NCBI GenBank assembly: GCA_022394775.1
Contig: JAGFCB010000022.1
Location: 32,633-96,632, forward strand
DNA: 64,000 nucleotides
From: Candidatus Poribacteria bacterium
GTDB lineage: Bacteria > Poribacteria > WGA-4E > WGA-3G
Reading direction: 5' to 3'
A program made the position numbers and the translations under genes. The notes beneath the pieces are model-generated. The model ran no database searches. It worked only from the letters and a program-made list of their open reading frames with translations, and was not told the origin of the DNA. Below, in pieces: positions 2-64,000 of the stretch (within the stretch, counting starts at the first letter, position 1; the number at the start of each line of letters is the position of its first letter).

Positions 2-880
2 CATAACGTTCCCTATTTTGGCTACGGTGTGTGGCATCCATCAGCAGATTGGATTGACGAGAAATACGAATCACTCTATAATAACATCAACGAAAATGAC
101 GAGGCTTTAAGACTCAGCGTTCGCCGTGGGGATGAGATATTTACGCTCGAAATGCCGGTGGAGTGGCGTGTGATCGCAGCTGTTCAAGAAGAGGGCATTG
201 CTGAAAACGCTGGCATTCAGGATGGAGATGTACTCCTTACGCTTAACGGAGAAACCGTAAACGAGACGACGCTCTACTCACAACTCATTGCGGCAAACCA
301 ACCGATTGAAATCGAATTGATGCGGCAGGGTAGCCTGGAACAAGTAACTCTTTCGGGCGAGACGGAAAGTTCAGAGACGGATCCTAAACATATTATGTTC
401 GGATTGATATGGCAGACCTCTCTCAGCGGTCTGCAGCTCGATGCAAAGGAGCCACCTTTGCCAGAATATGGTATTTTCGCAGCGTTTGAGAAAGGTGTTG
501 AAGCGACATGGTTGACCTTTACAGCCATTGGCAGAACGCTCCAGCAGTTGATAGGTGGTGATGTATCGCCGAAACACCTCGCGGGTCCCGTCGGTATTGC
601 GACCGCAACGAGCAACATGTTTAATCGTCTCGGCTTGAGCAGTGTAATCTTTTTTATCGGGTTTATCAGTATTAATCTTGCTATTGTCAATCTGCTACCG
701 ATTCCGATTGCTGATGGCGGGCAGCTGCTCTTTTGTGCCGTTGAAAAGTTGCGGGGCAAGCCTATGCCCCGAAAGGCACAAGAAATTGTTCAGCAGGTTA
801 CCATTGTTCTTATGATTGCGTTTTTCTTGTACGTCACGTGGTTCGATGGTCTGTCGGTCATTGACAATCTGCGGAATTAG
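2..880 (+). CDS. rseP: RIP metalloprotease RseP, C-terminal part (5' end outside window)
   Basis: PDZ-like segment (AENAGIQDGDVLLTLNG), GPVGI motif and NLLPIPIADGG M50 motif; frame is open to the window edge. Confidence 0.9.
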   Translation, partial: HNVPYFGYGVWHPSADWIDEKYESLYNNINENDEALRLSVRRGDEIFTLEMPVEWRVIAAVQEEGIAENAGIQDGDVLLTLNGETVNETTLYSQLIAANQPIEIELMRQGSLEQVTLSGETESSETDPKHIMFGLIWQTSLSGLQLDAKEPPLPEYGIFAAFEKGVEATWLTFTAIGRTLQQLIGGDVSPKHLAGPVGIATATSNMFNRLGLSSVIFFIGFISINLAIVNLLPIPIADGGQLLFCAVEKLRGKPMPRKAQEIVQQVTIVLMIAFFLYVTWFDGLSVIDNLRN

Positions 881-1007
881 TAGAATAGTCATCGGTTATC
901 AGTTATCAGTTAAGAGACATGCTGTGGCTGGTACAACAAAGCAACTGCCACAAGATGTTAACTCTCACTGCGAAGCATGAAGACTGACGGCTATTAATGG
1001 ATGAAAA

Positions 1008-1727
1008 ATGGATAGAGACAGTATTAAAAAAGAATACATAGAACTCGTTGCAAGTGTGAGGGAATACATGGAAGAGCAACTTCAACTCGGCTTCATAGAA
1101 ACGGAATCCAGCGAGCCCCAAAAACCGTCGCCTTATGCCGATTTCGATCTGCCAGCGTTGGCAACAGATGCCGGAGCCTGCACGAAATGTAGGTTACACG
1201 AGACCCGCAAGCGTGTCGTTTTCGGTGTCGGGAATACGAGTGCTGATCTTATGTTCATCGGTGAGGCACCCGGGGCCGATGAGGATGAACAAGGCGAACC
1301 TTTTGTCGGTAGGGCGGGTCAATTGCTAACACAAATCATTGAGTCAGGGATGAAGCTGAAGCGCGAGGATGTGTATATCGCGAATGTGCTTAAATGCCGT
1401 CCTCCTGGCAACAGAAACCCTGAACCCGATGAGATTGCGTCTTGTAGTCCGTATTTAATCCGTCAGATAGAACTCATCCAACCGAAAGTGATTGTAGCGT
1501 TAGGAAGTTTTGCAGCACAGATGATGATCGGTACAAATATAGGGATTACTAAACTTCGCGGTGAGTTCCATGCGTGTAAGCTTGAGGGATTGCACGTTCT
1601 TCCGCATAAAAAGGCGCCGGTTGTTATGCCGACTTTCCATCCAGCCTACCTTCTCAGAAATCCAAATGCGAAACGCGATGTGTGGGAAGATATAAAAAAA
1701 GTCCTGGCATTTTTGGCGCGAGGATAG
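1008..1727 (+). CDS. Uracil-DNA glycosylase, family 4 (4Fe-4S)
   Basis: Cxx[23 protein letters not shown] and FHPAYLLR motifs. Confidence 0.93.
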
Positions 1728-1856
1728 AATAGGAAATGGCTATCGGCTATCAGTTAAGATAAGAGAGTTACGCTAACCCTTTTGTCTTTTGCTAACTTCT
1801 GAAAGGTTTTTCGCAGAAAAACCGCCCTGACTGCCGAAAGCCATATTTGAAAAAAT

Positions 1857-4412
1857 ATGAGTTATGCGAACGTTGCTTTTCCACTATCCGTAGATCAGGT
1901 GTTTACCTATGGCGTGCCGCGAGATTTGGACGCGGTTTTGCAACCTGGGGTTCGAGTATTAGCACCGTTTCGCCGAACAAAGCAGGAAGGCGTTGTCGTT
2001 GAACGTGTAGATGAAACCGATCTCGCTCCGAAACTTATCAAGAATGTCTCTGACTGTCTGGATGAGACTCCGATGTACTCTCGTGAGATGCTCAACCTTA
2101 CAAAATGGATGGCGGACTATTATGTCTGTCCGTGGGGCGTTGCGCTCTTTTCAGCAGTGCCAGCTGCTGTCCGCAGCCAGAAAAAGGAGCAGGTCGAGAT
2201 TTTACCCGAATTCTCCGCATCCCTCGGAAAAATCGAAGAAAAATTCGTCGCATTATTAGAAGCAGAAGGCAAACTCTCGATGCGTCAACTTGCCAGACGG
2301 ACTGGGTTGAGTTATCAGGATGTGCGTCCAAAGATTACAGCACTCTCCAACAAAGGTGTTGTTAAGATTGATGTTTCCCATAAACCGAAAGCGACCACGC
2401 AAAAAACGACTGTAGCGGAATTAGCGTTACCGATTGCTGATATTGAGGCAGAAATTGTGCAACTCAAGAATGAGGGAGCAGACGGTTCCAATAAGCGTCG
2501 CCATGCAGGAGATGCGAAACGCGCAGAAGTTCTCGAACTGCTTCTTGCTGAAAGTGCCCCGTTAGCAACGGCGGACTTGATAAAGCGGGTAAATGCGAGC
2601 AGTTCATTGTTACGCCCCTTGGAAAGACGCGGATTTATTCAGATTACACGCGCAGAAACGGTGCGGAATCCGCTGAACTCTGAGTCTGTTGCGCCGACAC
2701 ACCCCCTCCGGTTGAACTCGACGCAATTGACGGCGTTCTCGGAAATTCAAAAAGTCCTGGCATCAGACCCTGTAGGAGGGGTTTGTCCCCCCGATTCTTT
2801 GAACAAAGCTAAGCGGCCGCCGACTTTTCTCTTACACGGGGTAACCGGCAGCGGAAAAACAGAGGTCTATATGCAGGCGATGGCGGAAGTGTTGGCGAAT
2901 GGAAAGTCTGTGATAGTGTTGGTCCCAGAGATTTCACTTACACCGCAAACGGCTTCTCGATTTGTTGGACGCTTCGGGGAACGGGTCGCATTGTTGCATA
3001 GTCGGTTGAACGATGGCGAACGCTATGACCAATGGCATCGCATTCAGAAAGGTGAAGCGGATATTGTTATCGGTCCGCGTTCTGCTGTCTTTGCCCCAGT
3101 CAAAGCACTCGGCATGCTGATTATAGACGAGGAGCATTCGGACTCTTATAAATCGGATAACGCCCCGCGTTACCATGCGCGGGAAGTGGCGCAAAAACGG
3201 AGCGAACTCGCGAATTGTCCTGTTCTGCTTGGAAGTGCGACCCCATCTCTTGAGAGTTTCCATCATGCGAAAAATGGGAGTTATCGGCTTCTCAATTTAC
3301 CGAACCGTGTTTTTGATAGAAAGATGCCCGATGTTCACATCGTTGATATGCGAACCGAACTGAAAAAGGGCAATCGCACGATCTTCTCCGAGATACTCCG
3401 AAGTTCTATTGAAGAGCGGCTTGTCCGGCGAGAGCAAATTATTCTGTTCCTTAACCGGCGTGGACACTCCACTTATGTCTTCTGCCGAACGTGCGGCTAT
3501 GTTGAACAGTGTGACAATTGTTCTATCTCGTTAACCTACCACCGTGAGACGCAACTGCTTGTTTGCCACCACTGTGGTGCCAAACGTCCGACGCAGCCTA
3601 CCTGTCCGCAGTGCGGCAGTGAGGCTATCCGCTTTTTTGGTGCGGGAACAGAGGCGGTTGAGCAAGAGGTGCACAAGGCATTTCCAAAGGCGAGTGTCCA
3701 GCGATTTGATGCGGATTCGACGGCGCGAAAAAATGCGCATCAGCAGATTTTGAAAAGATTTGAACAGCAGAAGATTGACATCCTGATCGGTACACAGATG
3801 GTATCAAAAGGGTTAGACTTTCCGAACGTTACACTTGTCGGGGTTATCGCAGCGGATACGGCTTTAAATCTACCGGATTTCCGAGCGAGTGAGCAAACGT
3901 TCAGTCTGTTAACGCAGGTTGCGGGACGCTCTGGACGTGCTGAACTTGAGGGTAAAGTTGTCATCCAGACGTATATGCCGGAGCATTATTGTATCGCGGC
4001 TGCACAGAAGCACGACTACCTTGATTTCTATCAGCAGGAGATTGAAGCGCGCGGCGCGTTACAGTATCCACCGTTCTCGCATGTCGCAGTGCTCTTACTG
4101 CGGGGTAAAGACGAAAAAGAGGTCATTGATACCGCCCATGCTGTGCGCGATCAACTTGAGATATGGCAGACAGATCAAGCGCGTCCTTCGCGGGCACCTG
4201 ATACGCAAGAACTGGCAGTGGAAATCCTCGGTCCTGCCCCGGCACCGCTCTCGAAAATTGAAGGAAAATTTCGGTGGCATCTCTTGCTCCGAAGCCCTGC
4301 GGCGGAGAAAATGGGGCACCTCCTTAGACGTTTAAGTGACGATCCGCCTGTCAGCATTAAATCAAAGGCTATTGAATTTGTGATAGATATTGATCCAACG
4401 AATACACTCTAA
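1857..4412 (+). CDS. priA: Primosomal protein N' (replication restart helicase)
   Basis: GVTGSGKTEVY, DEEH, four CxxC pairs, QVAGRSGR, terminal IDIDP. Confidence 0.97.
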   Translation: MSYANVAFPLSVDQVFTYGVPRDLDAVLQPGVRVLAPFRRTKQEGVVVERVDETDLAPKLIKNVSDCLDETPMYSREMLNLTKWMADYYVCPWGVALFSAVPAAVRSQKKEQVEILPEFSASLGKIEEKFVALLEAEGKLSMRQLARRTGLSYQDVRPKITALSNKGVVKIDVSHKPKATTQKTTVAELALPIADIEAEIVQLKNEGADGSNKRRHAGDAKRAEVLELLLAESAPLATADLIKRVNASSSLLRPLERRGFIQITRAETVRNPLNSESVAPTHPLRLNSTQLTAFSEIQKVLASDPVGGVCPPDSLNKAKRPPTFLLHGVTGSGKTEVYMQAMAEVLANGKSVIVLVPEISLTPQTASRFVGRFGERVALLHSRLNDGERYDQWHRIQKGEADIVIGPRSAVFAPVKALGMLIIDEEHSDSYKSDNAPRYHAREVAQKRSELANCPVLLGSATPSLESFHHAKNGSYRLLNLPNRVFDRKMPDVHIVDMRTELKKGNRTIFSEILRSSIEERLVRREQIILFLNRRGHSTYVFCRTCGYVEQCDNCSISLTYHRETQLLVCHHCGAKRPTQPTCPQCGSEAIRFFGAGTEAVEQEVHKAFPKASVQRFDADSTARKNAHQQILKRFEQQKIDILIGTQMVSKGLDFPNVTLVGVIAADTALNLPDFRASEQTFSLLTQVAGRSGRAELEGKVVIQTYMPEHYCIAAAQKHDYLDFYQQEIEARGALQYPPFSHVAVLLLRGKDEKEVIDTAHAVRDQLEIWQTDQARPSRAPDTQELAVEILGPAPAPLSKIEGKFRWHLLLRSPAAEKMGHLLRRLSDDPPVSIKSKAIEFVIDIDPTNTL

Positions 4413-4554
4413 GAGTAGTTATAAGTTATAAGTACGGTTTTTCTGCGAAAAACCTTTAGGTTATAAGTAAAGAGCGGTCGGGAGTTTCTGAACCCTCTTA
4501 ACTTATAACTTATAACTGCGTACTCGCTAACTAATTACAAGGAATTAATTATAG

Positions 4555-5514
4555 ATGGGTAACCGGATATTTGAGAAACTTGCTGATCCAGACCTGCTTG
4601 CACAAAACCCGATCCTGGTTTTTGCGGCGGATCCACTTGCATCCGCTGGCATTAAAGGACTCGGACAGGTGCAGCATCCAAAACCACACTATCGTACACA
4701 CGCAGAGTTCTTGCAGCTTCAACGCGACCTCGTCGCTGATGGGCAATTAGATGGACTTCTGATGACACCTGCCGATGCAGAAACGCTTGCGCTTGAAGAA
4801 GACCTGCTTGAGAGCTCGCCGATCACACCGATTGTCCGGATGAATTCAGAAACCGCCATCTGGAACCCACGATTTGGTGTCTATACCTCACACCCGTCGA
4901 TGCCGTTTCAGACGGTATTTCCGGAGGATATGCAACGCTATTGTGAGGCACTTATCGGTCCCGCGCTGGAATGCAAGGTTAATCTTGGGTTGTACTCCAT
5001 TACACTCAACAACGATCCAGCCGCAGATGAACGGATGCTGCAAGCGTATGTACAATTCGCGCATGTCGTCGGTGAAATTGAAGGCTTCGATCATCTCTTA
5101 GAGGTGTTTTTACCGAACGTTAAACTCCCCGGCATGGACGAGGAAAAACGGGGTATGTACGTTGCGGATTCAATTGTTCGGACGATGAGTTACCTTCGGA
5201 AACACCAACGTCCCCGCTTTATTAAGACAGCGTATACGACTGGCGATGTCTGGGCTGAGTTGTGCCAATTCGATACGACGCTGGTGATCGGTGCGTTGGG
5301 CGGTCCTCGTCAAAACGCGCGTAGCACATTCACCTTGGCGCATAATGTCGTCAGTAACGGCGGACGTGCTATTCTGTTCGGACGCACCATCTTTGGAGAG
5401 GATGACCCGATCGGCTTTGTGCAATGCCTGCGTCGTGTGCTTGATGGCGAAGAAGATGCCCAGAGTGCCCATGCGTCGTATCAGAAGTTGTTGCGAGGTG
5501 TCCGTACGGGTTAG
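4555..5514 (+). CDS. Putative class I aldolase-like TIM-barrel protein
   Basis: HLLEVF, FIKTAY (candidate Schiff-base Lys), ALGG and GGRAILFGRTIF resemble the DeoC/FbaB/LacD-like barrel. Confidence 0.6.
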   Translation: MGNRIFEKLADPDLLAQNPILVFAADPLASAGIKGLGQVQHPKPHYRTHAEFLQLQRDLVADGQLDGLLMTPADAETLALEEDLLESSPITPIVRMNSETAIWNPRFGVYTSHPSMPFQTVFPEDMQRYCEALIGPALECKVNLGLYSITLNNDPAADERMLQAYVQFAHVVGEIEGFDHLLEVFLPNVKLPGMDEEKRGMYVADSIVRTMSYLRKHQRPRFIKTAYTTGDVWAELCQFDTTLVIGALGGPRQNARSTFTLAHNVVSNGGRAILFGRTIFGEDDPIGFVQCLRRVLDGEEDAQSAHASYQKLLRGVRTG

Positions 5515-5659
5515 CAAGGCTCCGTTATTCCTGAGGTCTGGTAGGCGCGCTTTGTAAATGTGCTTACCAGACAATCCAGCACAGTCTAACAGGCTATGCT
5601 ATAGCGGATCAAGAACACAGCCCAACAGGCTATGCTACAGCGGATTAGGAGATTTCTAA

Positions 5660-6964
5660 ATGCAGCATCAACCGTTAGAAACGCCGCGTATTCTCCTGCT
5701 CCTTCCAACACGCACATATCGGGCTACGGACTTCCTTGACGCTGCATTGAAACTTGATGTAGAGATCGTTATCGCTTCAGAAGAAGCCGCGACGACGGCG
5801 GATCTTTCGCCGCGCCAATGGCTTGTGTTGGACATCGCTGTGCCGAGCGTTGCGACCCAGACAATCCTTGAATTTGCTGAAACATACCCTATCACAGCGA
5901 TAGTTGGTGTTGATGACGATACTACGTTGCTTGCCACAACTGCCTCAGCGGCGTTAGGGCTTCCACACAATCCTGTTGCTTCAGCGAAAGCCACACGCGA
6001 TAAATACCTCTTACGGGACACATTAGCAACAAACAGTGTATCGGTCCCTGCTTACCAACGCTTCTCTATCTATGATGACGCTGTTGAAATAGCGCAGAAG
6101 CTCGGAACGGACATACCGATCACTTTCCCGTGTGTTATTAAGCCGTTATCCCTCTCCGCAAGCCGCGGTGTCATCCGTGCAGACACGCCTGCTGAATTCG
6201 TCGAAGCCTTTCAACGGACCACCAAACTCTTGCACGCTTTACAGGAAACCACTAATGCAGGCGGGGATTGTAACCCCGATTCCTCGGGGCACCCCTCGCA
6301 ATACCTACTCGTTGAAGACTATATCCCGGGGATAGAGGTAGCACTTGAGGGGATTCTCTTAGATGGTGAGCTGAAGGTGCTCGCGCTCTTCGATAAACCA
6401 GATCCGCTTGAGGGTCCTTTTTTTGAGGAGACACTCTATATCACGCCTTCCCGTTTACCGACGGATACCCAGGCAGCATTACATCATGCGACAGCAGAAG
6501 CTGCAGATGCTTTAGGGCTGCAGCACGGACCCGTTCACGCCGAATTGCGCTATAACGAGGAAGGCGCGCATCTCATCGAAATCGCTGCCCGAACGATTGG
6601 GGGCCTTTGCTCTCGGACCTTACGGTTCGGAACGGGGATGTCATTGGAGGAACTTGTTATCCGTCATGCGATTGGGCAACCGGTGGAAACATTACAGCGA
6701 GAACAACAAGCGGCAGGGGTCATGATGATTCCGGTGCCAAAGGCTGGTATCTTAGGCGAAGTGCGTGGCAAAACGCAGGCGTATCACGTAGACGGAATTG
6801 TAGAGGTTAACATCACGATCCCTATCGGCGGAGAGGTTGTGCCGTTACCGGAAGGGGCGCGGTATCTCGGTTTCATCTTTGCGCGTGCTGAAACACCCGA
6901 AGCGGTGGAGGCAGCATTGCGTGAAGCACATCGGCAGTTGGAATTTGTGATTCTGGCGGAGTGA
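5660..6964 (+). CDS. ATP-grasp domain protein
   Basis: RDKY, PCVIKP, SASRGV, VEDYIPG, HAELR and IEIAARTIGG motifs. Confidence 0.88.
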   Translation: MQHQPLETPRILLLLPTRTYRATDFLDAALKLDVEIVIASEEAATTADLSPRQWLVLDIAVPSVATQTILEFAETYPITAIVGVDDDTTLLATTASAALGLPHNPVASAKATRDKYLLRDTLATNSVSVPAYQRFSIYDDAVEIAQKLGTDIPITFPCVIKPLSLSASRGVIRADTPAEFVEAFQRTTKLLHALQETTNAGGDCNPDSSGHPSQYLLVEDYIPGIEVALEGILLDGELKVLALFDKPDPLEGPFFEETLYITPSRLPTDTQAALHHATAEAADALGLQHGPVHAELRYNEEGAHLIEIAARTIGGLCSRTLRFGTGMSLEELVIRHAIGQPVETLQREQQAAGVMMIPVPKAGILGEVRGKTQAYHVDGIVEVNITIPIGGEVVPLPEGARYLGFIFARAETPEAVEAALREAHRQLEFVILAE

Positions 6965-14113: not shown

Positions 14114-14232
14114 TATAGTAAAACCCGTAATTACTTGAACACCCAAAGAATGGCGGGGTTACAAACCCCGCCTGCAAGGAACAGTGGTTCTGTGTTTCCG
14201 AGAGTGTTTACATATCTTCGGGCTTTACTATA
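14114..14232. mobile_element. MITE-like element TATAGTAAA...TTTACTATA with central REP hairpin
   Basis: Close copy at 19701-19860; relatives at 33637-33773, 41353-41469, 47261-47386 and 61888-62006. Confidence 0.7.
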
Positions 14233-19700: not shown

Positions 19701-19860
19701 TATAATAAAACCCCTAATTACTTGAACACCGAAAGAATGACGGGGTTACAAACCCCGCTTGCAATGGATAAGAAAGAATGACGGGGTTACAAACCTCGCC
19801 TGCAATGGATAAGGATTCTGTGTTTCCGAGAGTGTTCACATATCTTCGGGCTTTACTATA
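19701..19860. mobile_element. MITE-like element, copy of 14114-14232 with duplicated central hairpin
   Basis: Same ends; AAAGAATGACGGGGTTACAAACC.CGC.TGCAATGGATAAG unit present twice. Confidence 0.7.
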
Positions 19861-21160: not shown

Positions 21161-21250
21161 TCGTTTTATTTTCCACTATGATTATGAAACAAGTTTCGTG
21201 TGAAGCAGACGGGGTTTAAAACCCTGCCTGCAGTGGAGCTTCCGCTATGA

Positions 21251-29236: not shown

Positions 29237-29386
29237 GCTGAAAACCGAAAACCTTTGCTTGTATAGTATATCATATTTTTCTGGGAAATCAAATTATTTA
29301 TTAAAGTTTCGCTGTTGCTTTTAAGCAGCCCTCTTGCAGGCGGGGTTTCAAACCCCGCTTGCAGGGCTGGGAAATCAAATTATTTA

Positions 29387-29878
29387 TTAAAGTTTCGCTA
29401 TTGCTTTCAAGGATTCGAGGACTTCTGTCTGTTGGACGAGATCGAATTGATGTGTGCCGATATACATATATCTGATAACCCCTGTTTTGTCAATGACAAA
29501 CGTTGACGGACGTGCGATGTTGTAAGCCTCAAGACTGAGCCAGTGGTAGACGCCGTAGTTTTTGATGACGTTCCGCGTTTTGTCTATTAGCAGTGGGAAT
29601 GTGATGCCGTTTTTATCGGCATAGCCGCGGAGTTCGCGGGGCCACTGCCCAGCGATGGCAAGTGGTGTTGCTGTATGCTCGGCGTAGGCTTCAACATTTT
29701 CTTGGACTGCCGACAACTGACGGCGGCTGTTCGGTCACCATGTTCCTCTGAAGAATGTTAGCACGATGTGTTGCGCGTCTCGGTACGCTTCAAGCGAGAT
29801 GTCCACTCGTTGGTGTGATGACAGTGTGAATAGGGGCGCGGTATCGCCGATGTTGAGGATTTTGTTTTTTCGCGGCAT
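29387..29878 (-). CDS. AhpC/TSA (peroxiredoxin-like) redoxin, probable selenoprotein with UxxS motif
   Basis: Frame from ATG 29878 reads GDTAPLFTL...IVLTFFRGTW-TGA-PNSRRQL and continues into the listed 109-aa ORF (FPLLID, RPSTFVIDKTGVIRY); TGA at 29737-29735 aligns with the Cys of WCPxC. Confidence 0.82.
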
Positions 29879-29913: not shown

Positions 29914-30003
29914 GTTTTTAGCGGTTGGCAGTGTAAATATGAGATGGCGTGAGGGATGTCGCGAGGTAGAAGATCACGAGCATAGGAGGATATGAAGCAG
30001 AAA

Positions 30004-30056
30004 GATCGCGAGTACAGATTGAGCCTACAAAGATCGCGAGCACAGCTCGCTCCTAC
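30004..30056 (-). repeat. GTAG-type REP cluster (GTAGGAGCGAGCTGTGCTCGCGATC)
   Basis: Full copy 30032-30056, degenerate copy 30004-30028; same REP at 33847-33959 (three) and 41605-41673 (two). Confidence 0.85.
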
Positions 30057-30082: not shown

Positions 30083-33000
30083 TTACTTTTCCTCTTGATT
30101 GGTCGAAGAAGGGAGTGCATACATGCTTCGCCGCACTTTCACAATTTCACCAGCATCGACAAGCCGTTTGAGTTCGTTTTTTGTGGAACCTGGATGTCCT
30201 TCAATGACATCAATGAGTTCAGATGTTTTTTTCTCGCCTGTGGCAAGAAGTGCGAAGATCTGATCACGGAGCGGGACGCGGAGGGGTTTCCCGCCTCTAA
30301 ACTTCATCAATATTCGATTGGCTTGGCTTCTGGAGATGCCCAAGACGTGTTCTACTTCATCTCTATGGGATTCGGCAGTGAGAGTGTCGCGTTCTGCCTC
30401 AAACTGCTCACGCGTAGCGATGGTTTCAGGGAGTTTGTCTAAGCCACCGGCGACCTCAAAATCTTCCCAATCAAAAAGCAACGTTTCAGGACGATCAGTG
30501 ATATCAGGGAGGGGTACACTCGCAAGCAGGACTACGGTTTTATTGGGTAAGCGGTTCAAGCCGGCGCGTCCGATAACCTGTGAAAATAAGCCTACAGATT
30601 GCCGTTCATGGACGGACCGAATGCGTGCGTCTTTATAGATACCGGATACTGCTTCACCATCATAAGAGAGGGGTTTTTCGTCGTCTCCGAACTGGATCTG
30701 CGATTGTCTCCAAACGTGTTCTGGTGTCCAGAAAGGTCCCCCAACGATCCAAATGACATCTGCCGTTTCAAAAGCGGAGGTTTCTAATGTTGTTAGGTGC
30801 TTAAAGCCCTTAACGAAACAGACGTTCTCTTTTGCTGCGATGTGCTTTAAATGTAGTTTTACCGGTGCGCAGCAGATAATTGCATGCCGAACGTTCGGGT
30901 CCTTCTCAATTTCGGCTTGGATATGGAGAAAAAAGCGTTGCCCCATTTCGGACATGCCGAGTACCCGCCAGTCGGTATCGTAGTTTAAAAGCGTATGTCG
31001 TGGATAGATGCCTGTTCGGATCTGAAAGACTCGATTTCCGGGTACCCATGCTGTCGGTTTGACGTGATGGACTTCAATTTCGGCATCGGGGAACGCTCTA
31101 CGCAAATCGCGTTCAGAAAGCATTGATGACATAAACAAGAGTCGTTTGACGTTCGGATGCAACACCGGCGGCACCCAGAACTTTAACTGTGTCTCATCCC
31201 ATAACATGGGAGCATCGGCATCCCGTAAGTAATATGCGAAGAAACGCGTGAGTTGATGCCAAAATGTCCAGTTCAGATCCTGACAGACAGTTGGAAAGTC
31301 TTGAATTTTCGCAGTAGTTGAGGTATCCAAGATCCCGAATTCAATGGCTTGTGTAATTGAGATAGGGATATTCAGGTCTTGGTTCAATTGAAAAGCCTCA
31401 AGTTCAAAGGCCGGTACTTCTTTTAGGGTGAGTCTATTCGCAGCGTCGGTATCCAAGGGAATGTAGGCAGCGGTGCCGCCGTCAAACTCGATAGCAAAAC
31501 GCGCTAACATCTTTCCGGTTTGATCATCAACAAATTCGCGGGGTACGACTTTAGCGGTTATATTGACTTGCCCCATTTGCTGGGCGAGCGTTGCTTCTTG
31601 TCCTTGAAAGGCTTGCACGACGGCTCGGACGCGCCTGATAGGATTCTCATCCATTTCGCCTTTAATCTCTAAAGCGTTTAGTAAAGCAGTGGTAAAGTTC
31701 CCTAAGGCGTACCCGCGCCAATTCAGGCACCAATTTTCCAAGGTATCTTTTGATATTTTACACTGTATAAACAGCCTACCTGCGTGTGCTTCATCGATGA
31801 CACAAAGTCGTTCTGTGCTGTCCACAGGTTCAAGAATTTCAGCTGCCATTTTTGCGTGTTCTGGATCCAAAAACAGCCGAATAGGATTCAATATTTGTAC
31901 TGCGGCATTTTTTAGCGCGGTAGATTGGGATAAATATCCACGTTGTTGGCATTCAGTATAGACGGGACACTGTGGACAAATACTCTCATTCGGATTTCCA
32001 CCTTTCTCTTCGAGTGCCTTACACCGCTCTGGATCCTCGCAGACATTCCCGTGTTGAAAGGGTGTCGCCATCCGTATCTCGGCAGGTATATCTTTCACTT
32101 TTTGCCACAAGTAATTCCGGGGTCTGAGGTGTACAACCGATGACACATTTCGATCCCGAAAGTGTTGTTCGAGTTTTTGCGTCACCTCGAATTCCGCGGT
32201 TAGACTAACAGTGCCGCCGTCAAGGGCATGGGTCGCCGCAGCGTAGCTTTTACCGCCACCGTCTTCGGCAATAAGTCCAAGAATCCGTACATCCCGATTA
32301 AAAACGCTCTGCATCTGGGTAGCACTTTCTTCAAGCGTTCCATAAACCTTATTCTGCGTTTCTTTTTTAGGTAGGACTGGAGAGGGTCGTTTTATTCCCA
32401 ATGGGCTGAGCTTGGCTTCGCGTACGGCAAGAATATTATCGGTTACAGGTAATCCAGTGGTCGGTATTGCTGGCAGAATACCGGTATCATCCCAGATATT
32501 TGTTAGCGGTGTCGCTTCCATTGGTAGCCCAGTATCAGGCATGGAAGCGCGAACCCAGACTTCTGTATCTTGCTCCCATAGCGAAACGTGTGCATCGCCA
32601 AAACCGCTGTCGGATTGACGCCACTGGTAAATGCCGTCCTTTTGTTGAAGATAAGAAAACCCGCGCTTCAAAAACGCCTCTTTTGCGAGGTTAAGGTTGT
32701 GCGATCCGAAGGACATTGGCACGATAGGCATCTCTTGAACGGCAGCTTCCAAGTCGCTTTCTTCAAGCGATATTGGTTGGTGAAGTGCAGCCCGAAGCGT
32801 ATCAATAGGTGCCAAGAGTACCTCTTTGGCAATGATAGGTGGATCTAAGAGGTTTCCCATCAGAATTTCGTGGCGGCCATCCCAACAACTGTATCCTTTA
32901 TCGCCTAAGATTTCAAGCAGATGCGCGCGATGGTATGGATTTTCGGAGGTCGGTGTGTGTTTGTAAATATACTGTTTGGCTTCATTGGTATTGGGATGGA

Positions 33001-33496
33001 GATAATTCAGGACTCTGCAGGAGAAGCGCAATCCACCAGACTTTGATAGCGTCAATAGTGGGTTCGCGACAGCGTTAAGGAGTGCCTCAACACAGGTGAG
33101 AACGGCATCGGGAGCAGCACAAATAGCGTCATACTTAAACTCGATGTCGTGCCACTGGGCACCCTCACATTCTGAGGGGACACCGGTATATACTTGGATT
33201 CCCCATGATTGATGCCAGAATACCCCAGTCCAGTCTTTTCTGCCTTGGCGTTTCAAGAATCGTTCTTCCTCAAAACCTGACAGACCGTGGTCGTAATCAG
33301 GGACGCGCCTCATCGGCATGAAAGAGATGTTCGCCTGCTCAAGTCTATAAAGGTTTACAGGGTATCTCCAAGCACAATAGGCGGTAAAATTATAAGGAAG
33401 CGCTTTATAGAGTGCTGGTGTTACTCTTGTCTTACGCTGTCGAAGGGGTTTTTTGTGTCGTTGATGACAACGTTGAATGATATCTTTTAAATTCAT
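30083..33496 (-). CDS. Large hypothetical protein: Prim-Pol-like N-terminus, Cys cluster, SF2 helicase-like core, C-terminal HTH/wHTH
   Basis: GIQVYTGVPS, WHDIE, TLSKSGGLR, LEILGDKGY; AEDGGGKS, VIDEAH, QVIGRAGLNR; CEDPERC...CPQCPVYTEC; C-terminal LKRLVDAGEIVKVRRSMY. Confidence 0.7.
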   Translation of the reverse strand: MNLKDIIQRCHQRHKKPLRQRKTRVTPALYKALPYNFTAYCAWRYPVNLYRLEQANISFMPMRRVPDYDHGLSGFEEERFLKRQGRKDWTGVFWHQSWGIQVYTGVPSECEGAQWHDIEFKYDAICAAPDAVLTCVEALLNAVANPLLTLSKSGGLRFSCRVLNYLHPNTNEAKQYIYKHTPTSENPYHRAHLLEILGDKGYSCWDGRHEILMGNLLDPPIIAKEVLLAPIDTLRAALHQPISLEESDLEAAVQEMPIVPMSFGSHNLNLAKEAFLKRGFSYLQQKDGIYQWRQSDSGFGDAHVSLWEQDTEVWVRASMPDTGLPMEATPLTNIWDDTGILPAIPTTGLPVTDNILAVREAKLSPLGIKRPSPVLPKKETQNKVYGTLEESATQMQSVFNRDVRILGLIAEDGGGKSYAAATHALDGGTVSLTAEFEVTQKLEQHFRDRNVSSVVHLRPRNYLWQKVKDIPAEIRMATPFQHGNVCEDPERCKALEEKGGNPNESICPQCPVYTECQQRGYLSQSTALKNAAVQILNPIRLFLDPEHAKMAAEILEPVDSTERLCVIDEAHAGRLFIQCKISKDTLENWCLNWRGYALGNFTTALLNALEIKGEMDENPIRRVRAVVQAFQGQEATLAQQMGQVNITAKVVPREFVDDQTGKMLARFAIEFDGGTAAYIPLDTDAANRLTLKEVPAFELEAFQLNQDLNIPISITQAIEFGILDTSTTAKIQDFPTVCQDLNWTFWHQLTRFFAYYLRDADAPMLWDETQLKFWVPPVLHPNVKRLLFMSSMLSERDLRRAFPDAEIEVHHVKPTAWVPGNRVFQIRTGIYPRHTLLNYDTDWRVLGMSEMGQRFFLHIQAEIEKDPNVRHAIICCAPVKLHLKHIAAKENVCFVKGFKHLTTLETSAFETADVIWIVGGPFWTPEHVWRQSQIQFGDDEKPLSYDGEAVSGIYKDARIRSVHERQSVGLFSQVIGRAGLNRLPNKTVVLLASVPLPDITDRPETLLFDWEDFEVAGGLDKLPETIATREQFEAERDTLTAESHRDEVEHVLGISRSQANRILMKFRGGKPLRVPLRDQIFALLATGEKKTSELIDVIEGHPGSTKNELKRLVDAGEIVKVRRSMYALPSSTNQEEK

Positions 33497-33607: not shown

Positions 33608-33846
33608 GTTAAATTTGTGTATATTTCAGGACGATTTATAGTGAAACCTGTAATTATAATAAATCCCCTAATTACCTATACACCAACGGGGAGGCGAGGT
33701 TCCAAACCTCGCCAGCGGTGGGGGGATGTTTGTTCCCTGATGAGATGTAAACTTATTTTTGGATTTTGCTATAATTGGGGGTGTTTCATTATTAGCGGAG
33801 GAGACCTCGTACCGCAAACTGTATGAAGATTAAATAAATCATTAGG

Positions 33847-39401: not shown

Positions 39402-39465
39402 GGCGAGGTTTGAAACTTCGCCAGCAGCATTCCTGCCGATCAGAGGCGAGGTTTCAAACCTCGCC
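39402..39465. repeat. REP-like hairpin GGCGAGGTT-nnn-AACCTCGCC (two tandem copies)
   Basis: Family also near 14152, 19740, 19780, 21205, 29336, 33693, 41390, 50696, 53751, 61926 and 63962. Confidence 0.85.
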
Positions 39466-41352: not shown

Positions 41353-41469
41353 TATAGTAAAACTTACAATTAACGAGACATCTATAGAAGGCTGGGTTCC
41401 AAACCCAGCCTGCATTGTGGTAGGTTTGTTATTTTCTAAAGTGTTGATTTATTTTTCGGTTTTACTATA
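41353..41469. mobile_element. MITE-like element TATAGTAAA...TTTACTATA
   Basis: Nearly identical copy at 61888-62006. Confidence 0.72.
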
Positions 41470-50483: not shown

Positions 50484-50826
50484 GATGATAAATTCCTTGT
50501 AAAAATGATTTCTTTTGTTTATGATATTTGATACAATGTTTTCAATCGTGTCGGAACAGCCACAAGCGGCAATGACATCTCAATGCACATGAAAACTATG
50601 TAATGCGACCTCTTAGGTTCGTATAGTACATAATATAATATTAAACATTAAAAATAAACAAGTCAATTTGACAGGATTTACGCAACCCCTCTCCAGGCGA
50701 GGTTTAAAACCTCGCTTGCGGCGTACGGGTTGTAGGTTCTCCTTAGGAATTGGGTAAGCCCTATTTGAGATAAGACGCAGCGGTTATCGGTTGTTCTTAA
50801 GTGCTGATAGCTGCCTGCCATTTATT

Positions 50827-53640: not shown

Positions 53641-53832
53641 ACAGTATTTCTTTTTCTTCAGGATCTACGCAAGCAGTATCCCCAATATTTTACCCTTGTT
53701 CCGCCTTATCAGGTGGGCTTTATAGTAAAACCCGTAATTATTTTTACAGCAGCGGGGTTACAAACCCCGCCAGCAGAGGGATGGGGCCTTGTTCTCTTAT
53801 CAGGTGAATTTTAAGAAGCAGTGCGTTGTTTC

Positions 53833-61887: not shown

Positions 61888-62006
61888 TATATTATAAACC
61901 TACAATTAACGAGACATCCATAGAAGGCTGGGTTCCAAACCCAGCCTGCATGAGAGGTAGGTTTGTTATTTTCTAAAGTGTTGATTTATTTTTCGGTTTT
62001 ACTATA
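61888..62006. mobile_element. MITE-like element, copy of 41353-41469
   Basis: Near-identical internal sequence with the GGCTGGGTTCCAAACCCAGCC hairpin. Confidence 0.72.
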
Positions 62007-62822: not shown

Positions 62823-62931
62823 ATTTTATGGTAATTTCGGATATTTGTCAAAGTTTTTTATGTATCTGTGCGGGTCGTTTAATTCTCTGTAACACATTCA
62901 ACGTGACTTTCTCAGGAAGATATGCTATACT
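62823..62931. promoter_or_regulatory. Divergent sigma70-like promoters
   Basis: - strand TTGACA-17-TAAAAT (PhyH gene); + strand GTGACT-17-TATACT with extended -10 (ThuA-like gene). Confidence 0.55.
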
Positions 62932-62966
62932 TATGCAAAATCTTATGTTATGGAGTTTATTTTTTG

Positions 62967-63902
62967 ATGAATAACGAATGGGTTGTTTACGAAGGGAACG
63001 AAGGTCCTGGGAAGGGTAAACATATTGTCCTTGTCAGTGGCGATGAAGAGTATCGCTCTGAAGAGGCGTTACCGATGTTGGGGAAGGTGTTGGCTGCACA
63101 CCACGGGTTTAAATGCACGGTGCTGTTTGCGATTAATCCCGATACAGGCGAGATTGATCCAGAGGTGCAGACCAATATTCCGGGACTGCACAATTTAGAA
63201 TCGGCGGATATGATGGTGCTGTTCACGCGTTTCCGCGAACTGCCCGATGAACAGATGAAGTATGTCGTTGATTATACGAATGCTGGCAAACCTGTGATGG
63301 GGCTCCGAACGGCGACACACGCTTTCAGCTATAGCCGTGATCTTGAGAGTCCATATGCGAAATATAGTTTTAACAGCAAAGAGTTTGAAGGCGGCTACGG
63401 TAGACAAGTACTCGGTGAGACGTGGGTTAATCACCACGGACATCACGGGAAAGAGAGTGCTCGCGGCGTTATCGACGAAGCGATGCAAGACCACCCTATT
63501 CTCAAGGGTGTTGATGATGTCTGGGGTCCGTCCGATGTCTACGGCATTAACGATTTGACAGGTGATTCCGAAGTGCTTATCCACGGGCAGGTGTTGGTCG
63601 GTATGGATCCGACAGATGCACCGAAACCGGATACTATCACAATGCCGATGGTGTGGATTAAGACCTATACGGGTGATGAAGGTAACACCTCGCGCGTCTT
63701 AAATACGACAATGGGTGCCTCTGTGGATTTAGAGAGCGAAGGGCTTCGCCGTCTCCTGGTTAACGGTTGCTATTGGTGTATAGGGATGGAGGACGCGATT
63801 CCTGATAAGAGTGTTGTCGATTACGTTGGCGATTATGAACCGACGTTTTTCGGTTTCGGCACGTTTACAAAAGGTGTCCGTCCGGAAGACCATGCCTTGT
63901 AA
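62967..63902 (+). CDS. ThuA-like domain protein
   Basis: SGDEEYRSEE, GLRTATHAF, LGETW, HPILKG, TTMG. Confidence 0.8.
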   Translation: MNNEWVVYEGNEGPGKGKHIVLVSGDEEYRSEEALPMLGKVLAAHHGFKCTVLFAINPDTGEIDPEVQTNIPGLHNLESADMMVLFTRFRELPDEQMKYVVDYTNAGKPVMGLRTATHAFSYSRDLESPYAKYSFNSKEFEGGYGRQVLGETWVNHHGHHGKESARGVIDEAMQDHPILKGVDDVWGPSDVYGINDLTGDSEVLIHGQVLVGMDPTDAPKPDTITMPMVWIKTYTGDEGNTSRVLNTTMGASVDLESEGLRRLLVNGCYWCIGMEDAIPDKSVVDYVGDYEPTFFGFGTFTKGVRPEDHAL

Positions 63903-64000
63903 GACGATTTTTTGTCGGATATTAAATCGTGAAGGTTAGAACTCACGCAAATTACTTTGCAGGCGAGGTTTAAAACCTCGCCTGCGGTGTATGGGCCGGT

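What the first reader, a model, noticed from the sequence alone, without database searches (positions are those of the whole stretch)
2772..6283. REP-like hairpins translated in frame inside PriA and an ATP-grasp enzyme
Seen: priA 2772-2797 GTAGGAGGGGTTTGTCCCCCCGATTC encodes VGGVCPPD. The ATP-grasp gene at 6257-6283 has GCAGGCGGGGATTGTAACCCCGATTCC, encoding AGGDCNPD, which matches the intergenic hairpin at 29336 in 22 of 27 nt. Both are read in the same frame and sit in linkers just before conserved motifs (the PriA Walker A strand; YLLVEDYI). Known precedent: Rickettsia palindromic elements insert in frame into coding genes. Inference: this lineage's repeats add Cys-containing peptide inserts to proteins, even a core replication protein.
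Basis: partly seen in the sequence, partly recalled or inferred. Interest (0 to 1): 0.72.

Follow-up and report, generated by a model that had tools for sequence, protein, structure and literature searches.

The report
Hairpin repeats translated inside housekeeping genes
Small mobile hairpin DNA repeats of this sponge-symbiont genus have landed in frame inside working genes such as priA, adding about eight floppy residues to linker loops; this behaviour is already known from other bacteria, here seen with unusually rich turnover.

Summary
PriA (1857-4412) and an ATP-grasp ligase-like gene (5660-6964) each hold an in-frame copy of a 24-nt repeat, GTAGGAGGGGTTTGTAACCCCGAT ("B-type"). It is akin to the abundant intergenic palindrome ("A-type": 13 loci in the window). 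A and B together have 228 loci in the genome, against 0 in a shuffled genome.

Orthologs from other families of the order lack both segments. Within the genus the inserts are patchy. Both lie in low-confidence loops just before conserved strands.

Four more genes of this genome carry such copies: a UxaA/GarD-like dehydratase, PurL, a DUF255 thioredoxin protein and a siroheme-synthase-like protein. Copies on the other strand encode SGLQTPPT or IGVxNPSY.

The shared reading frame is forced, because the other two forward frames hold TAG and TAA. The Cys comes from the loop TGT and varies (C/S/A/W) among orthologs.

The same slots hold other hairpin types, tandem arrays (five copies in one species) or nothing in sister species. 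In three of four genes tested, hairpin codons show much less synonymous variation than the rest of the gene.

This matches intragenic GTAG-tagged REPs (Di Nocera et al. 2013). The scan has reported the same kind of thing on other DNA. No transposase was linked. Verdict: a new member of a known kind.

The parts
1857..4412 (+). priA (851 aa), the host gene of the first insert
   Evidence: ORF, translation. Pfam gives PriA_3primeBD, DEAD, Helicase_C, Zn_ribbon_PriA and PriA_C. PDB 4NL4 PriA matches at E 1e-132, with the helicase alignment starting at aa 318.
2772..2795 (+). B-type REP copy, 24 nt, read as VGGVCPPD (aa 306-313)
   Evidence: It is 2 mismatches from GTAGGAGGGGTTTGTAACCCCGAT. Contigs of two runs from another study (X2, X3), about 97% alike, read A at 2787 and 2788, which gives the exact consensus. 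It lies in pLDDT<50 coil 305-318, between helix 288-302 and strand 323-327. PriA of 5 of 5 other-family genomes lacks it.
5660..6964 (+). ATP-grasp (L-amino-acid-ligase-like) gene, 434 aa, the host gene of the second insert
   Evidence: Pfam gives ATP-grasp_4, LAL_C2 and ATPgrasp_N.
6257..6280 (+). REP copy with an A-type 5' arm (GCAGGCGGGG) and a B-type 3' end (CCCCGAT), read as AGGDCNPD (aa 200-207)
   Evidence: It is 3 mismatches from either consensus. The nearest species, G005 and G022 (90% identical protein), are 18 nt shorter here. It lies in the pLDDT<50 loop 199-209, between helix 177-199 and strand 215-220. Contigs of 4 runs from 3 studies cover the site with no gap.
14152..14172 (.). 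intergenic A-type palindrome between convergent ORFs
19739..19800 (.). two intergenic A-type copies in direct tandem, 41-nt period
21208..21228 (.). intergenic A-type copy
   Evidence: The RNA fold gives -27.4 kcal/mol, z -5.5.
33693..33713 (.). intergenic A-type variant (GGCGAGG...)
39402..39465 (.). two intergenic A-type variants in direct tandem, 43-nt period
41390..41410 (.). intergenic A-type variant (GGCTGGG...)
50696..50714 (.). intergenic A-type variant
53751..53771 (.). intergenic A-type copy between convergent ORFs
61926..61946 (.). intergenic A-type variant
63962..63982 (.). intergenic A-type variant after ORF 62922-63902

Best explanation
The two segments are copies of a genus-wide family of very small hairpin repeats of the REP type. 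One form is the 24-nt GTAG-headed unit GTAGGAGGGGTTTGTAACCCCGAT ("B"). The other is its strongly palindromic, mostly intergenic relative GCAGGCGGGGTTTnnAACCCCGCCTGC ("A").

Copies land or are copied all over the genome. Inside genes, only copies that add a multiple of three bases, carry no stop in the reading frame used, and fall in a flexible linker survive selection. The survivors are read through as 6-9 extra Gly/Pro-rich residues. In PriA the insert sits in the linker before the Walker-A strand. In the ATP-grasp enzyme it sits in the loop before the YLLVEDYI strand.

The inserts are most likely neutral passengers of working proteins, not functional Cys motifs.

Shown here: family membership, lineage-specificity, loop location, the frame constraint, and turnover of the slots. 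Inferred: the movement itself. A single-strand Y1 (RAYT-like) transposase acting at GTAG is a plausible agent by analogy, but none was linked here. Neutrality is also inferred.
For: Family. 228 genomic loci lie within 4 mismatches of A or B, against 0 in a shuffled genome. There are 13 intergenic loci in the window, against 0.08 expected. The pattern occurs in 24 of 24 other genomes of the genus (16-200 hits each; G000 has 243). It occurs in only 2 of 16 genomes of other families (1 and 6 hits of a variant). The reversed-pattern control gave 0-1 hits.

Lineage-specific inserts:
- PriA: B copies in 9 of 25 genus genomes and 0 of 5 outside.
- ATP-grasp: in-frame copies in G000, G015 and G009, a frame-shifted remnant in G001, out of 22 genus genomes; 0 of 8 outside. 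The nearest species are 18 nt shorter.
- UxaA/GarD-like dehydratase: B in 15 of 24.
- PurL: 4 of 23.
- DUF255 protein: 15 of 24.
- Siroheme-synthase-like protein: 12 of 24 with B, plus 2 with a variant.
- None of the 6-7 outgroup loci of each of these four genes holds the unit.

In the DUF255 gene, G004 versus G006 differ by exactly 24 nt, which is one unit.

Loops. Both inserts lie in pLDDT<50 coil.

Selection against genic copies. 17 of 228 loci lie inside long ORFs by a crude ORF rule: A 5 of 195, B 12 of 33.

Frame. The unit reads G-TAG in frame 2 and TG-TAA in frame 3. This is read directly from the sequence.

Independent samples. Contigs of 4 runs from 3 studies carry both inserts.

Precedent. 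Intragenic GTAG and CGTC REPs, many of them in replication and repair genes, are described in PMC3733652 (passages read).
Against: No mobilising enzyme was tied to the family. None of the 6 Y1_Tnp loci of G000 has an A or B copy within about 1.5 kb. Of 30 such loci in five relatives, only 1 has an exact B copy within that distance, and 2 more hold 2-3-mismatch variants.

Most filled-versus-empty comparisons are not clean insertions. The net differences are +12 or +18 nt with altered flanks. Replacement, later indels or gene conversion must therefore be invoked.

Hairpin codons show far less synonymous variation than the rest of the gene. In UxaA-like the codon diversity is 0.022 against 0.398, with 0 of 354 windows as low. 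In the CysG-like gene 4 of 200 windows are as low, and in PurL 9 of 649. A plainly neutral, once-inserted passenger would not show that.

The coding copies fold no better than shuffles as RNA (z -0.5 and -0.9).

Gene calls were my own ORF heuristics, not an annotation.
Confidence: 0.85

Rival explanations
1. The intragenic hairpins are kept by selection on the nucleotide sequence itself, or are constantly re-homogenised against the repeat pool. On this reading the slots are functional or actively maintained sites. They might be binding or cleavage sites of a REP-specific enzyme, mRNA pause or processing signals at domain boundaries, or sites of REP-for-REP exchange. They would not be inert passengers.
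For: Synonymous diversity of hairpin codons is almost nil across 15 species in the UxaA-like gene, while the neighbouring codons vary (0 of 354 windows as low). It is also low in the CysG-like gene (4 of 200) and PurL (9 of 649), and weaker in DUF255 (24 of 260).

The same slot holds different hairpin families in different species. At the UxaA slot, B is replaced by GTAGGGGCGAGGTCACCTCGCCCCTAC in 4 species that are scattered in both the species tree and the local gene tree. G006 and G023 carry their most abundant variant repeat at the slots where relatives carry B: both in the CysG-like gene, and G023 also in DUF255 and PurL.

Tandem growth occurs inside a gene: 2 copies in three species and 5 copies in G012.
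Against: The PriA copies are clearly decaying. Nine species have nine different versions, and the window's own copy has lost two stem pairs relative to close strains.

Slots are empty in many healthy-looking orthologs.

The carriers in the synonymous tests were chosen by their peptide, which favours well-kept copies.

The low diversity is equally explained by recent independent insertions of consensus copies.
Confidence: 0.11
2. The peptides are native, convergently similar linker motifs of these proteins, and the likeness to the intergenic hairpin is chance.
For: The PriA copy matched the first 19-nt pattern only at 3 mismatches. Linkers are often Gly/Pro-rich.
Against: A shuffled genome gave 0 hits at up to 4 mismatches, against 228 loci in the real genome. 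Other families of the order lack the segments. Close strains carry the exact 24-nt consensus in PriA. The same unit recurs in six unrelated genes.
Confidence: 0.02
3. It is an assembly artefact of a fragmented metagenome bin, with repeat-induced chimeric joins inside genes.
For: G000 has 331 contigs, and its estimated contamination is 3.5%.
Against: The frames stay open. The same inserts stand in single-contig genomes of relatives (for example G006, G008 and G023). They also stand in contigs of four other runs from three studies.
Confidence: 0.01

Closest known systems
Intragenic GTAG-tagged REPs (Di Nocera, De Gregorio & Rocco 2013, BMC Genomics 14:522, PMC3733652; passages read)
   Same: Both are short stem-loop repeats with a GTAG head, in many dispersed copies that are mostly extragenic. 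Some copies lie entirely within ORFs of known proteins, notably replication and repair genes. Different REPs sit at about the same site in orthologous genes (Xanthomonas recB in the paper). The authors also suggest that such copies are tolerated in flexible linkers.
   Different: The unit here is at the small end: 24 nt, a 6-bp stem and 8 residues. The paper says over half of intragenic inserts are dimers or groups encoding 20-30 aa. The host is a lineage the paper does not list (Poribacteria according to earlier notes of this scan). priA is not named in the paper's main text (0 hits for 'priA' and 'primosom'); its Additional file 3 was not seen. No REPtron for this family was found. The abundant A form has GCAG or GCTG, not GTAG, at its end.
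   Same: Selfish palindromic repeats are inserted in frame into working genes and translated.
   Different: RPEs are much longer (RPE-1 is of the order of 100-150 bp, by recall). The short ones are CGTC-tagged according to PMC3733652. They are confined to Rickettsia. There is no sequence likeness to the units here.
REPINs and RAYTs (Bertels & Rainey 2011, PMC3116915; passages read)
   Same: Both are REP-type hairpins thought to be moved by a Y1 HUH transposase. Y1_Tnp genes are present in this genome.
   Different: The two doublets in the window are direct tandems, not inverted pairs. No Y1 gene is flanked by this family.
Cyanobacterial small dispersed repeats (Elhai et al. 2008, Genome Res 18:1484). 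Only its entry in the reference list of PMC3116915 was seen; the content is recalled, because the paper is not held
   Same: Very small (about 21-27 nt) hairpin-forming mobile repeats that, by recall, also turn up inside genes.
   Different: A different phylum and different sequences. Nothing here was tested against them.

Membership tests
GTAG-tagged REP superfamily | Short (about 20-40 bp) stem-loop repeat | tested here: met
   B is 24 nt with a 6-bp stem. A has 14-nt arms.
GTAG-tagged REP superfamily | GTAG tetranucleotide at one end | tested here: met
   B has GTAG in 26 of 33 loci. Other slot occupants (GTAGGGGCGAGG..., GTAGGGGCTGGG...) also start with GTAG. The A form does not meet this: 8 of 195 have GTAG, 127 GCAG and 50 GCTG.
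GTAG-tagged REP superfamily | Many dispersed copies, mostly extragenic, chiefly between unidirectional or convergent ORFs | tested here: met
   There are 228 loci, against 0 in the shuffle. 211 of 228 lie outside long ORFs. Of the 11 intergenic sites in the window (13 loci, two sites being doublets), I read 10 as unidirectional, convergent or downstream of an ORF and 1 (50696) as divergent, from the ORF list. Gene calls are my own heuristics.
GTAG-tagged REP superfamily | A RAYT (Y1 transposase) gene flanked by the same repeats (REPtron) | tested here: not met
   Among 36 Y1_Tnp loci in G000 and five relatives, 1 has a single exact B copy about 400 nt upstream, and 2 more hold 2-3-mismatch variants. 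None is flanked on both sides. Only about 1.5 kb on each side was looked at, and G000 is 94% complete, so absence is not shown.
REPIN (Bertels & Rainey) | Two REPs in inverted orientation forming a larger hairpin | tested here: not met
   The doublets at 19739/19780 and 39402/39445 are direct tandems. Only the window's two doublets were examined.
Rickettsia palindromic elements | Long palindromic unit specific to Rickettsia (short forms CGTC-tagged) | tested here: not met
   The unit is 24 nt with a GTAG head and occurs in another lineage. Only the behaviour (in-frame, translated) is shared.
PriA (primosomal protein N') | 3'BD, two helicase lobes with Walker A, Cys-rich zinc ribbon, C-terminal domain; intact frame | tested here: met
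   The Pfam domains are all over their cut-offs. PDB 4NL4 matches at E 1e-132. The 851-aa frame is open.

The most novel reading that the evidence does not exclude
In this genus the intragenic repeats occupy fixed "slots" that are actively turned over, not hit once. A GTAG-recognising single-strand transposase would swap one REP type for another, add tandem units, or remove them at the same codon. This would keep the hairpin at consensus sequence even at synonymous sites. The slots would then act as built-in generators of short in-frame length variation in the linkers of housekeeping proteins (PriA, PurL, dehydratase and others), with possible RNA-level or enzyme-binding function.
Probability: 0.2. 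Interest if true: 0.6.

Novelty: new member of a known kind. Interest (0 to 1): 0.36.

Why it matters
The finding adds a well-resolved case to the small literature on selfish hairpin DNA that lives inside working genes. Six housekeeping or enzyme genes of one genome are involved, including the replication-restart helicase PriA.

The 25 related genomes form a natural experiment. The same linker codon is empty, holds one of several repeat types, or holds up to five tandem copies. That makes three questions testable by comparison: whether REP units move by replacement at existing GTAG sites, how fast they move, and which protein loops tolerate them.

There are also practical points. Such inserts inflate apparent divergence in linkers. 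They can mislead ortholog alignments, and they can mislead motif hunters, as with the apparent "Cys motif" here.

Tried and rejected
RAYT link. I searched Y1_Tnp (PF01797) in G000 and five relatives and scanned about 1.5 kb of flanks for A or B copies. This gave nothing convincing. One Y1 gene (L063) is flanked by several copies of a different small hairpin, so the genome does have a REPtron-like unit, but for another family.

Cys function. Rejected, because the position is C, S, A or W among orthologs.

"Same frame" as evidence. Rejected, because stops in the other two forward frames force it.

RNA structure of the coding copies. They are no better than shuffles, so I make no claim of a stable mRNA hairpin.

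I therefore did not try search for homologous proteins. "Poribacteria" rests on earlier notes of this scan and on "sponge metagenome" run labels, not on my own test.

Expression. No RNA holder was listed.

Rfam on 4300-4700. No match.

Literature. A search for 'Poribacteria' + 'repeat' + 'palindromic' found 31 papers, of which 15 were listed. By title and abstract start, none of those listed is about REP-type repeats (listing only). The Elhai 2008 paper could not be read. Additional file 3 of PMC3733652, the list of REP-bearing ORFs, was not opened, so PriA may be listed there.

Gains versus losses. A local tree of 100 codons on each side of the UxaA slot follows the species tree and does not group carriers of the same repeat type. 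It cannot separate recurrent insertion from short-tract recombination or old polymorphism.
Full report
**What is there**

The window holds an 851-aa priA (1857-4412) and a 434-aa ATP-grasp, L-amino-acid-ligase-like gene (5660-6964). They are read in frame as VGGVCPPD and AGGDCNPD. The second matches the intergenic hairpin at 29336-29362 in 22 of 27 positions (my count).

**The repeat family**

A 19-nt degenerate hairpin pattern hits 15 loci in the window: 2 coding and 13 intergenic. Shuffles predict 0.08. In the whole assembly (5.9 Mb, 331 contigs), 228 loci lie within 4 mismatches of two 24-nt consensus forms. A shuffled genome gives none.

- Form A (GCAGGCGGGGTTTnnAACCCCGCC...) is a strong palindrome. 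The copy at 29335-29363 folds at -27.4 kcal/mol, z -5.5.
- Form B (GTAGGAGGGGTTTGTAACCCCGAT) has only a 6-bp stem and a GTAG head. GTAG is present in 26 of 33 B loci, against 8 of 195 A loci.

The PriA copy is 2 mismatches from B. The ATP-grasp copy has an A-like 5' arm and a B-like 3' end.

The genome also holds several other GTAG-headed hairpin families.

The A/B pattern occurs in all 24 other genomes of the genus that were drawn (16-200 hits). It occurs in only 2 of 16 genomes of the other three families of the order (1 and 6 hits of a variant). The reversed-pattern control gave 0-1.

**Are the coding copies insertions?**

PriA. The five orthologs from other families that were aligned have a short linker with nothing comparable. 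In the genus, 9 of 25 genomes have a recognisable B copy at this place, each somewhat different. Two more have what may be remnants.

ATP-grasp gene. G000's nearest species, G005 and G022 (90% identical protein), are 18 nt shorter exactly here. G015 and G009 carry GT[AC]GGAGGGGTTTCTAACCCCGAT at the same place. G001 carries a frame-shifted remnant. None of 8 other-family loci has it.

Independent DNA. Contigs of four runs from three other studies cover both sites. Two of them, about 97% identical to the window, read A at 2787 and 2788. That restores the exact B consensus in PriA, so the window's CC (Pro for Asn) is a later change. A more distant contig has 21 extra bases in the PriA slot. All four cover the ATP-grasp site without a gap. 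Assembly artefact is thus excluded.

**Where in the proteins**

AlphaFold2 models were built on alignments of the orthologs.

- ATP-grasp insert (aa 200-207): in a pLDDT<50 loop, 199-209, between helix 177-199 and strand 215-220. Model mean pLDDT is 79.8.
- PriA insert (aa 306-313): in pLDDT<50 coil 305-318, between helix 288-302 and the strand before Walker A. This model is only moderate, with mean pLDDT 68 and pTM 0.48.

The sequence alignment to solved PriA (4NL4) begins at aa 318, just after the insert.

**It is general**

By a crude ORF rule, 17 of 228 loci lie inside long ORFs: A 5 of 195, B 12 of 33. Several of the A cases look like they lie upstream of the true start.

I checked four more genes against orthologs. 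Each carries a B unit that is lacking in every outgroup locus examined and patchy in the genus.

| Gene | Peptide | Genus genomes with the unit |
|---|---|---|
| UxaA/GarD-like dehydratase | VGGVCNPD | B in 15 of 24 |
| PurL | IGVGNASY (unit on the other strand) | 4 of 23 |
| DUF255 thioredoxin protein | SELQTPPT | 15 of 24 hold one or more units |
| Siroheme-synthase-like protein | SGLQTPPT | 12 of 24, plus 2 with a variant |

In the DUF255 gene, G004 and G006 differ by exactly 24 nt, which is one unit.

A secreted protein and three dockerin-bearing paralogs also carry the unit, but I did not check their orthologs.

SGLQTPPT-like peptides occur 4 times, against 0.05.

- Same frame. The forward unit reads G-TAG in frame 2 and TG-TAA in frame 3, so only one forward frame can survive. 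"Same frame" therefore carries no extra weight.
- Other strand. Units on the other strand are open in all three frames, and two of them are seen in use.
- Cys. The Cys is the loop triplet TGT. Orthologs have TCT (S), GCT (A) or TGG (W).

**Slot turnover**

The same linker positions hold different things in sister species.

- The UxaA slot has B in 15 species, the perfect palindrome GTAGGGGCGAGGTCACCTCGCCCCTAC in 4 species, and an outgroup-like short form in 5.
- The four palindrome carriers are scattered in the species tree and in a tree of the 100 codons on each side.
- PriA of G013 holds GTAGGGGCTGGGTCACCCAGCCCCTAC where its sisters are empty. G008 and G015 hold an additional 45-nt hairpin in frame.
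- G006 and G023 hold another dispersed repeat at slots where relatives hold B: both in the CysG-like gene, and G023 also in DUF255 and PurL. That repeat has 55 and 97 hits in them, against 12-30 in three relatives.
- The DUF255 slot holds two units in three species and five tandem units in G012.

**A point against plain neutrality**

I compared codons whose amino acid is invariant among carriers. Codon diversity in the hairpin and in the rest of the gene was:

| Gene | Hairpin codons | Rest of gene | Windows as low |
|---|---|---|---|
| UxaA-like | 0.022 | 0.398 | 0 of 354 |
| CysG-like | 0.155 | 0.375 | 4 of 200 |
| PurL | 0.000 | 0.371 | 9 of 649 |
| DUF255 | 0.227 | 0.411 | 24 of 260 |

Carriers were picked by their peptide, which favours well-kept copies, although it does not act on synonymous sites directly. 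Recent independent insertions, homogenisation against the repeat pool, or selection on the DNA or RNA would each explain this. The PriA copies, by contrast, are visibly decaying.

**Mechanism**

The best-supported reading is that REP-type selfish hairpins spread in the genus and that only frame-preserving, stop-free copies in flexible linkers are tolerated.

By analogy with GTAG REPs, whose GTAG is cleaved by RAYT transposases (PMC3733652, passages), a Y1 transposase is the likely mover. The genome has five clear Y1_Tnp genes plus a short fragment. However, among 36 Y1 loci in six genomes only one has an exact B copy nearby, and none is flanked by the family. This step remains inference.

**Known or new**

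Intragenic GTAG and CGTC REPs are described in Di Nocera et al. 2013. That paper notes many cases in replication and repair genes, different REPs at the same site of orthologous recB genes, and the idea that they sit in flexible linkers.

Earlier agents of this scan reported the same kind of thing in many other lineages, including "fixed slots" with different variants.

I found no paper on such repeats in Poribacteria (listing only). priA is not mentioned in the main text of the 2013 paper, and its supplementary list was not read.

Verdict: real, well supported, a new member of a known kind. The slot turnover and the synonymous conservation are the parts worth a specialist's second look.

Noticed in passing
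window 4413-4520: An element of about 105 nt lies directly after the priA stop codon. It has terminal inverted repeats AGTTATAAGTTATAAGT / ACTTATAACTTATAACT and begins with GTAG. In four sponge or marine metagenome runs its summed contig depth is 62-4394, against roughly 5-30 in the flanks, with many joints and loose ends. The genome has 62 hits of the 17-mer (up to 2 mismatches), 13 of them with an inverted partner 40-200 nt away. There is no Rfam match. It looks like a MITE.
   Followed up: partly
window 29281-29411: A 45-nt direct repeat (96% identical, spacing 86 nt) brackets the A-type hairpin at 29335-29363. The hairpin may sit at the junction of a local duplication.
   Followed up: no
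window 30001-30056: A tandem pair of a 28-nt unit (82% identical) lies just beyond the 3' end of the 1137-aa minus-strand ORF 30083-33496.
   Followed up: no
L008, L009 and L021 (PriA of G008, G015, G018): A different hairpin of about 45 nt (12-bp stem CCCGCGATCACG/CGTGATCGCGGG plus an outer stem) is inserted in frame in the same PriA linker. It encodes TEARDHDDRDRGTSA or similar.
   Followed up: partly
L191 (G012, DUF255 ortholog), slot aligned to G000 contig C263:77178: Five tandem B units with a 27-nt period are read through in frame as (A/E/K)SGLQT(P/L)PT x5. G007, G021 and G019 have two units each.
   Followed up: partly
L207, L208, L176, L115 (G023 and G006 orthologs): A further dispersed repeat (TCGGGGAAACACCCAAGCAAAAACACC..., read as SGKHPSKNT) shares the outer ends of the B unit. 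It sits at slots where relatives hold B: in both genomes in the CysG-like gene, and in G023 also in DUF255 and PurL. It has 97 and 55 genomic hits in G023 and G006, and 12-30 in three relatives.
   Followed up: partly
L063 (G000 contig C266:97455-100799): A 168-aa Y1 (IS200-like) transposase gene is flanked on both sides by several copies of small hairpins (GCACTCC-gct-GGAGTGC and TCACGCC-tcc-GGCGTGA). This is a REPtron-like layout for a repeat family other than A or B.
   Followed up: no
window 19739-19800 and 39402-39465: Intergenic A-type hairpins occur as direct tandem doublets (41- and 43-nt periods), not as inverted REPIN-like pairs.
   Followed up: partly
L047 (G016 ATP-grasp ortholog): The ortholog match contains one in-frame TGA. 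This could be a break, a sequencing error or recoding.
   Followed up: no
window 6273-6300: Right after the ATP-grasp unit, the sequence CCCCGATTCCTCGGGG forms a second small palindrome overlapping the first. The RNA minimum-energy fold of 6251-6305 uses this alternative pairing (-20.8 kcal/mol, z -2.1).
   Followed up: no
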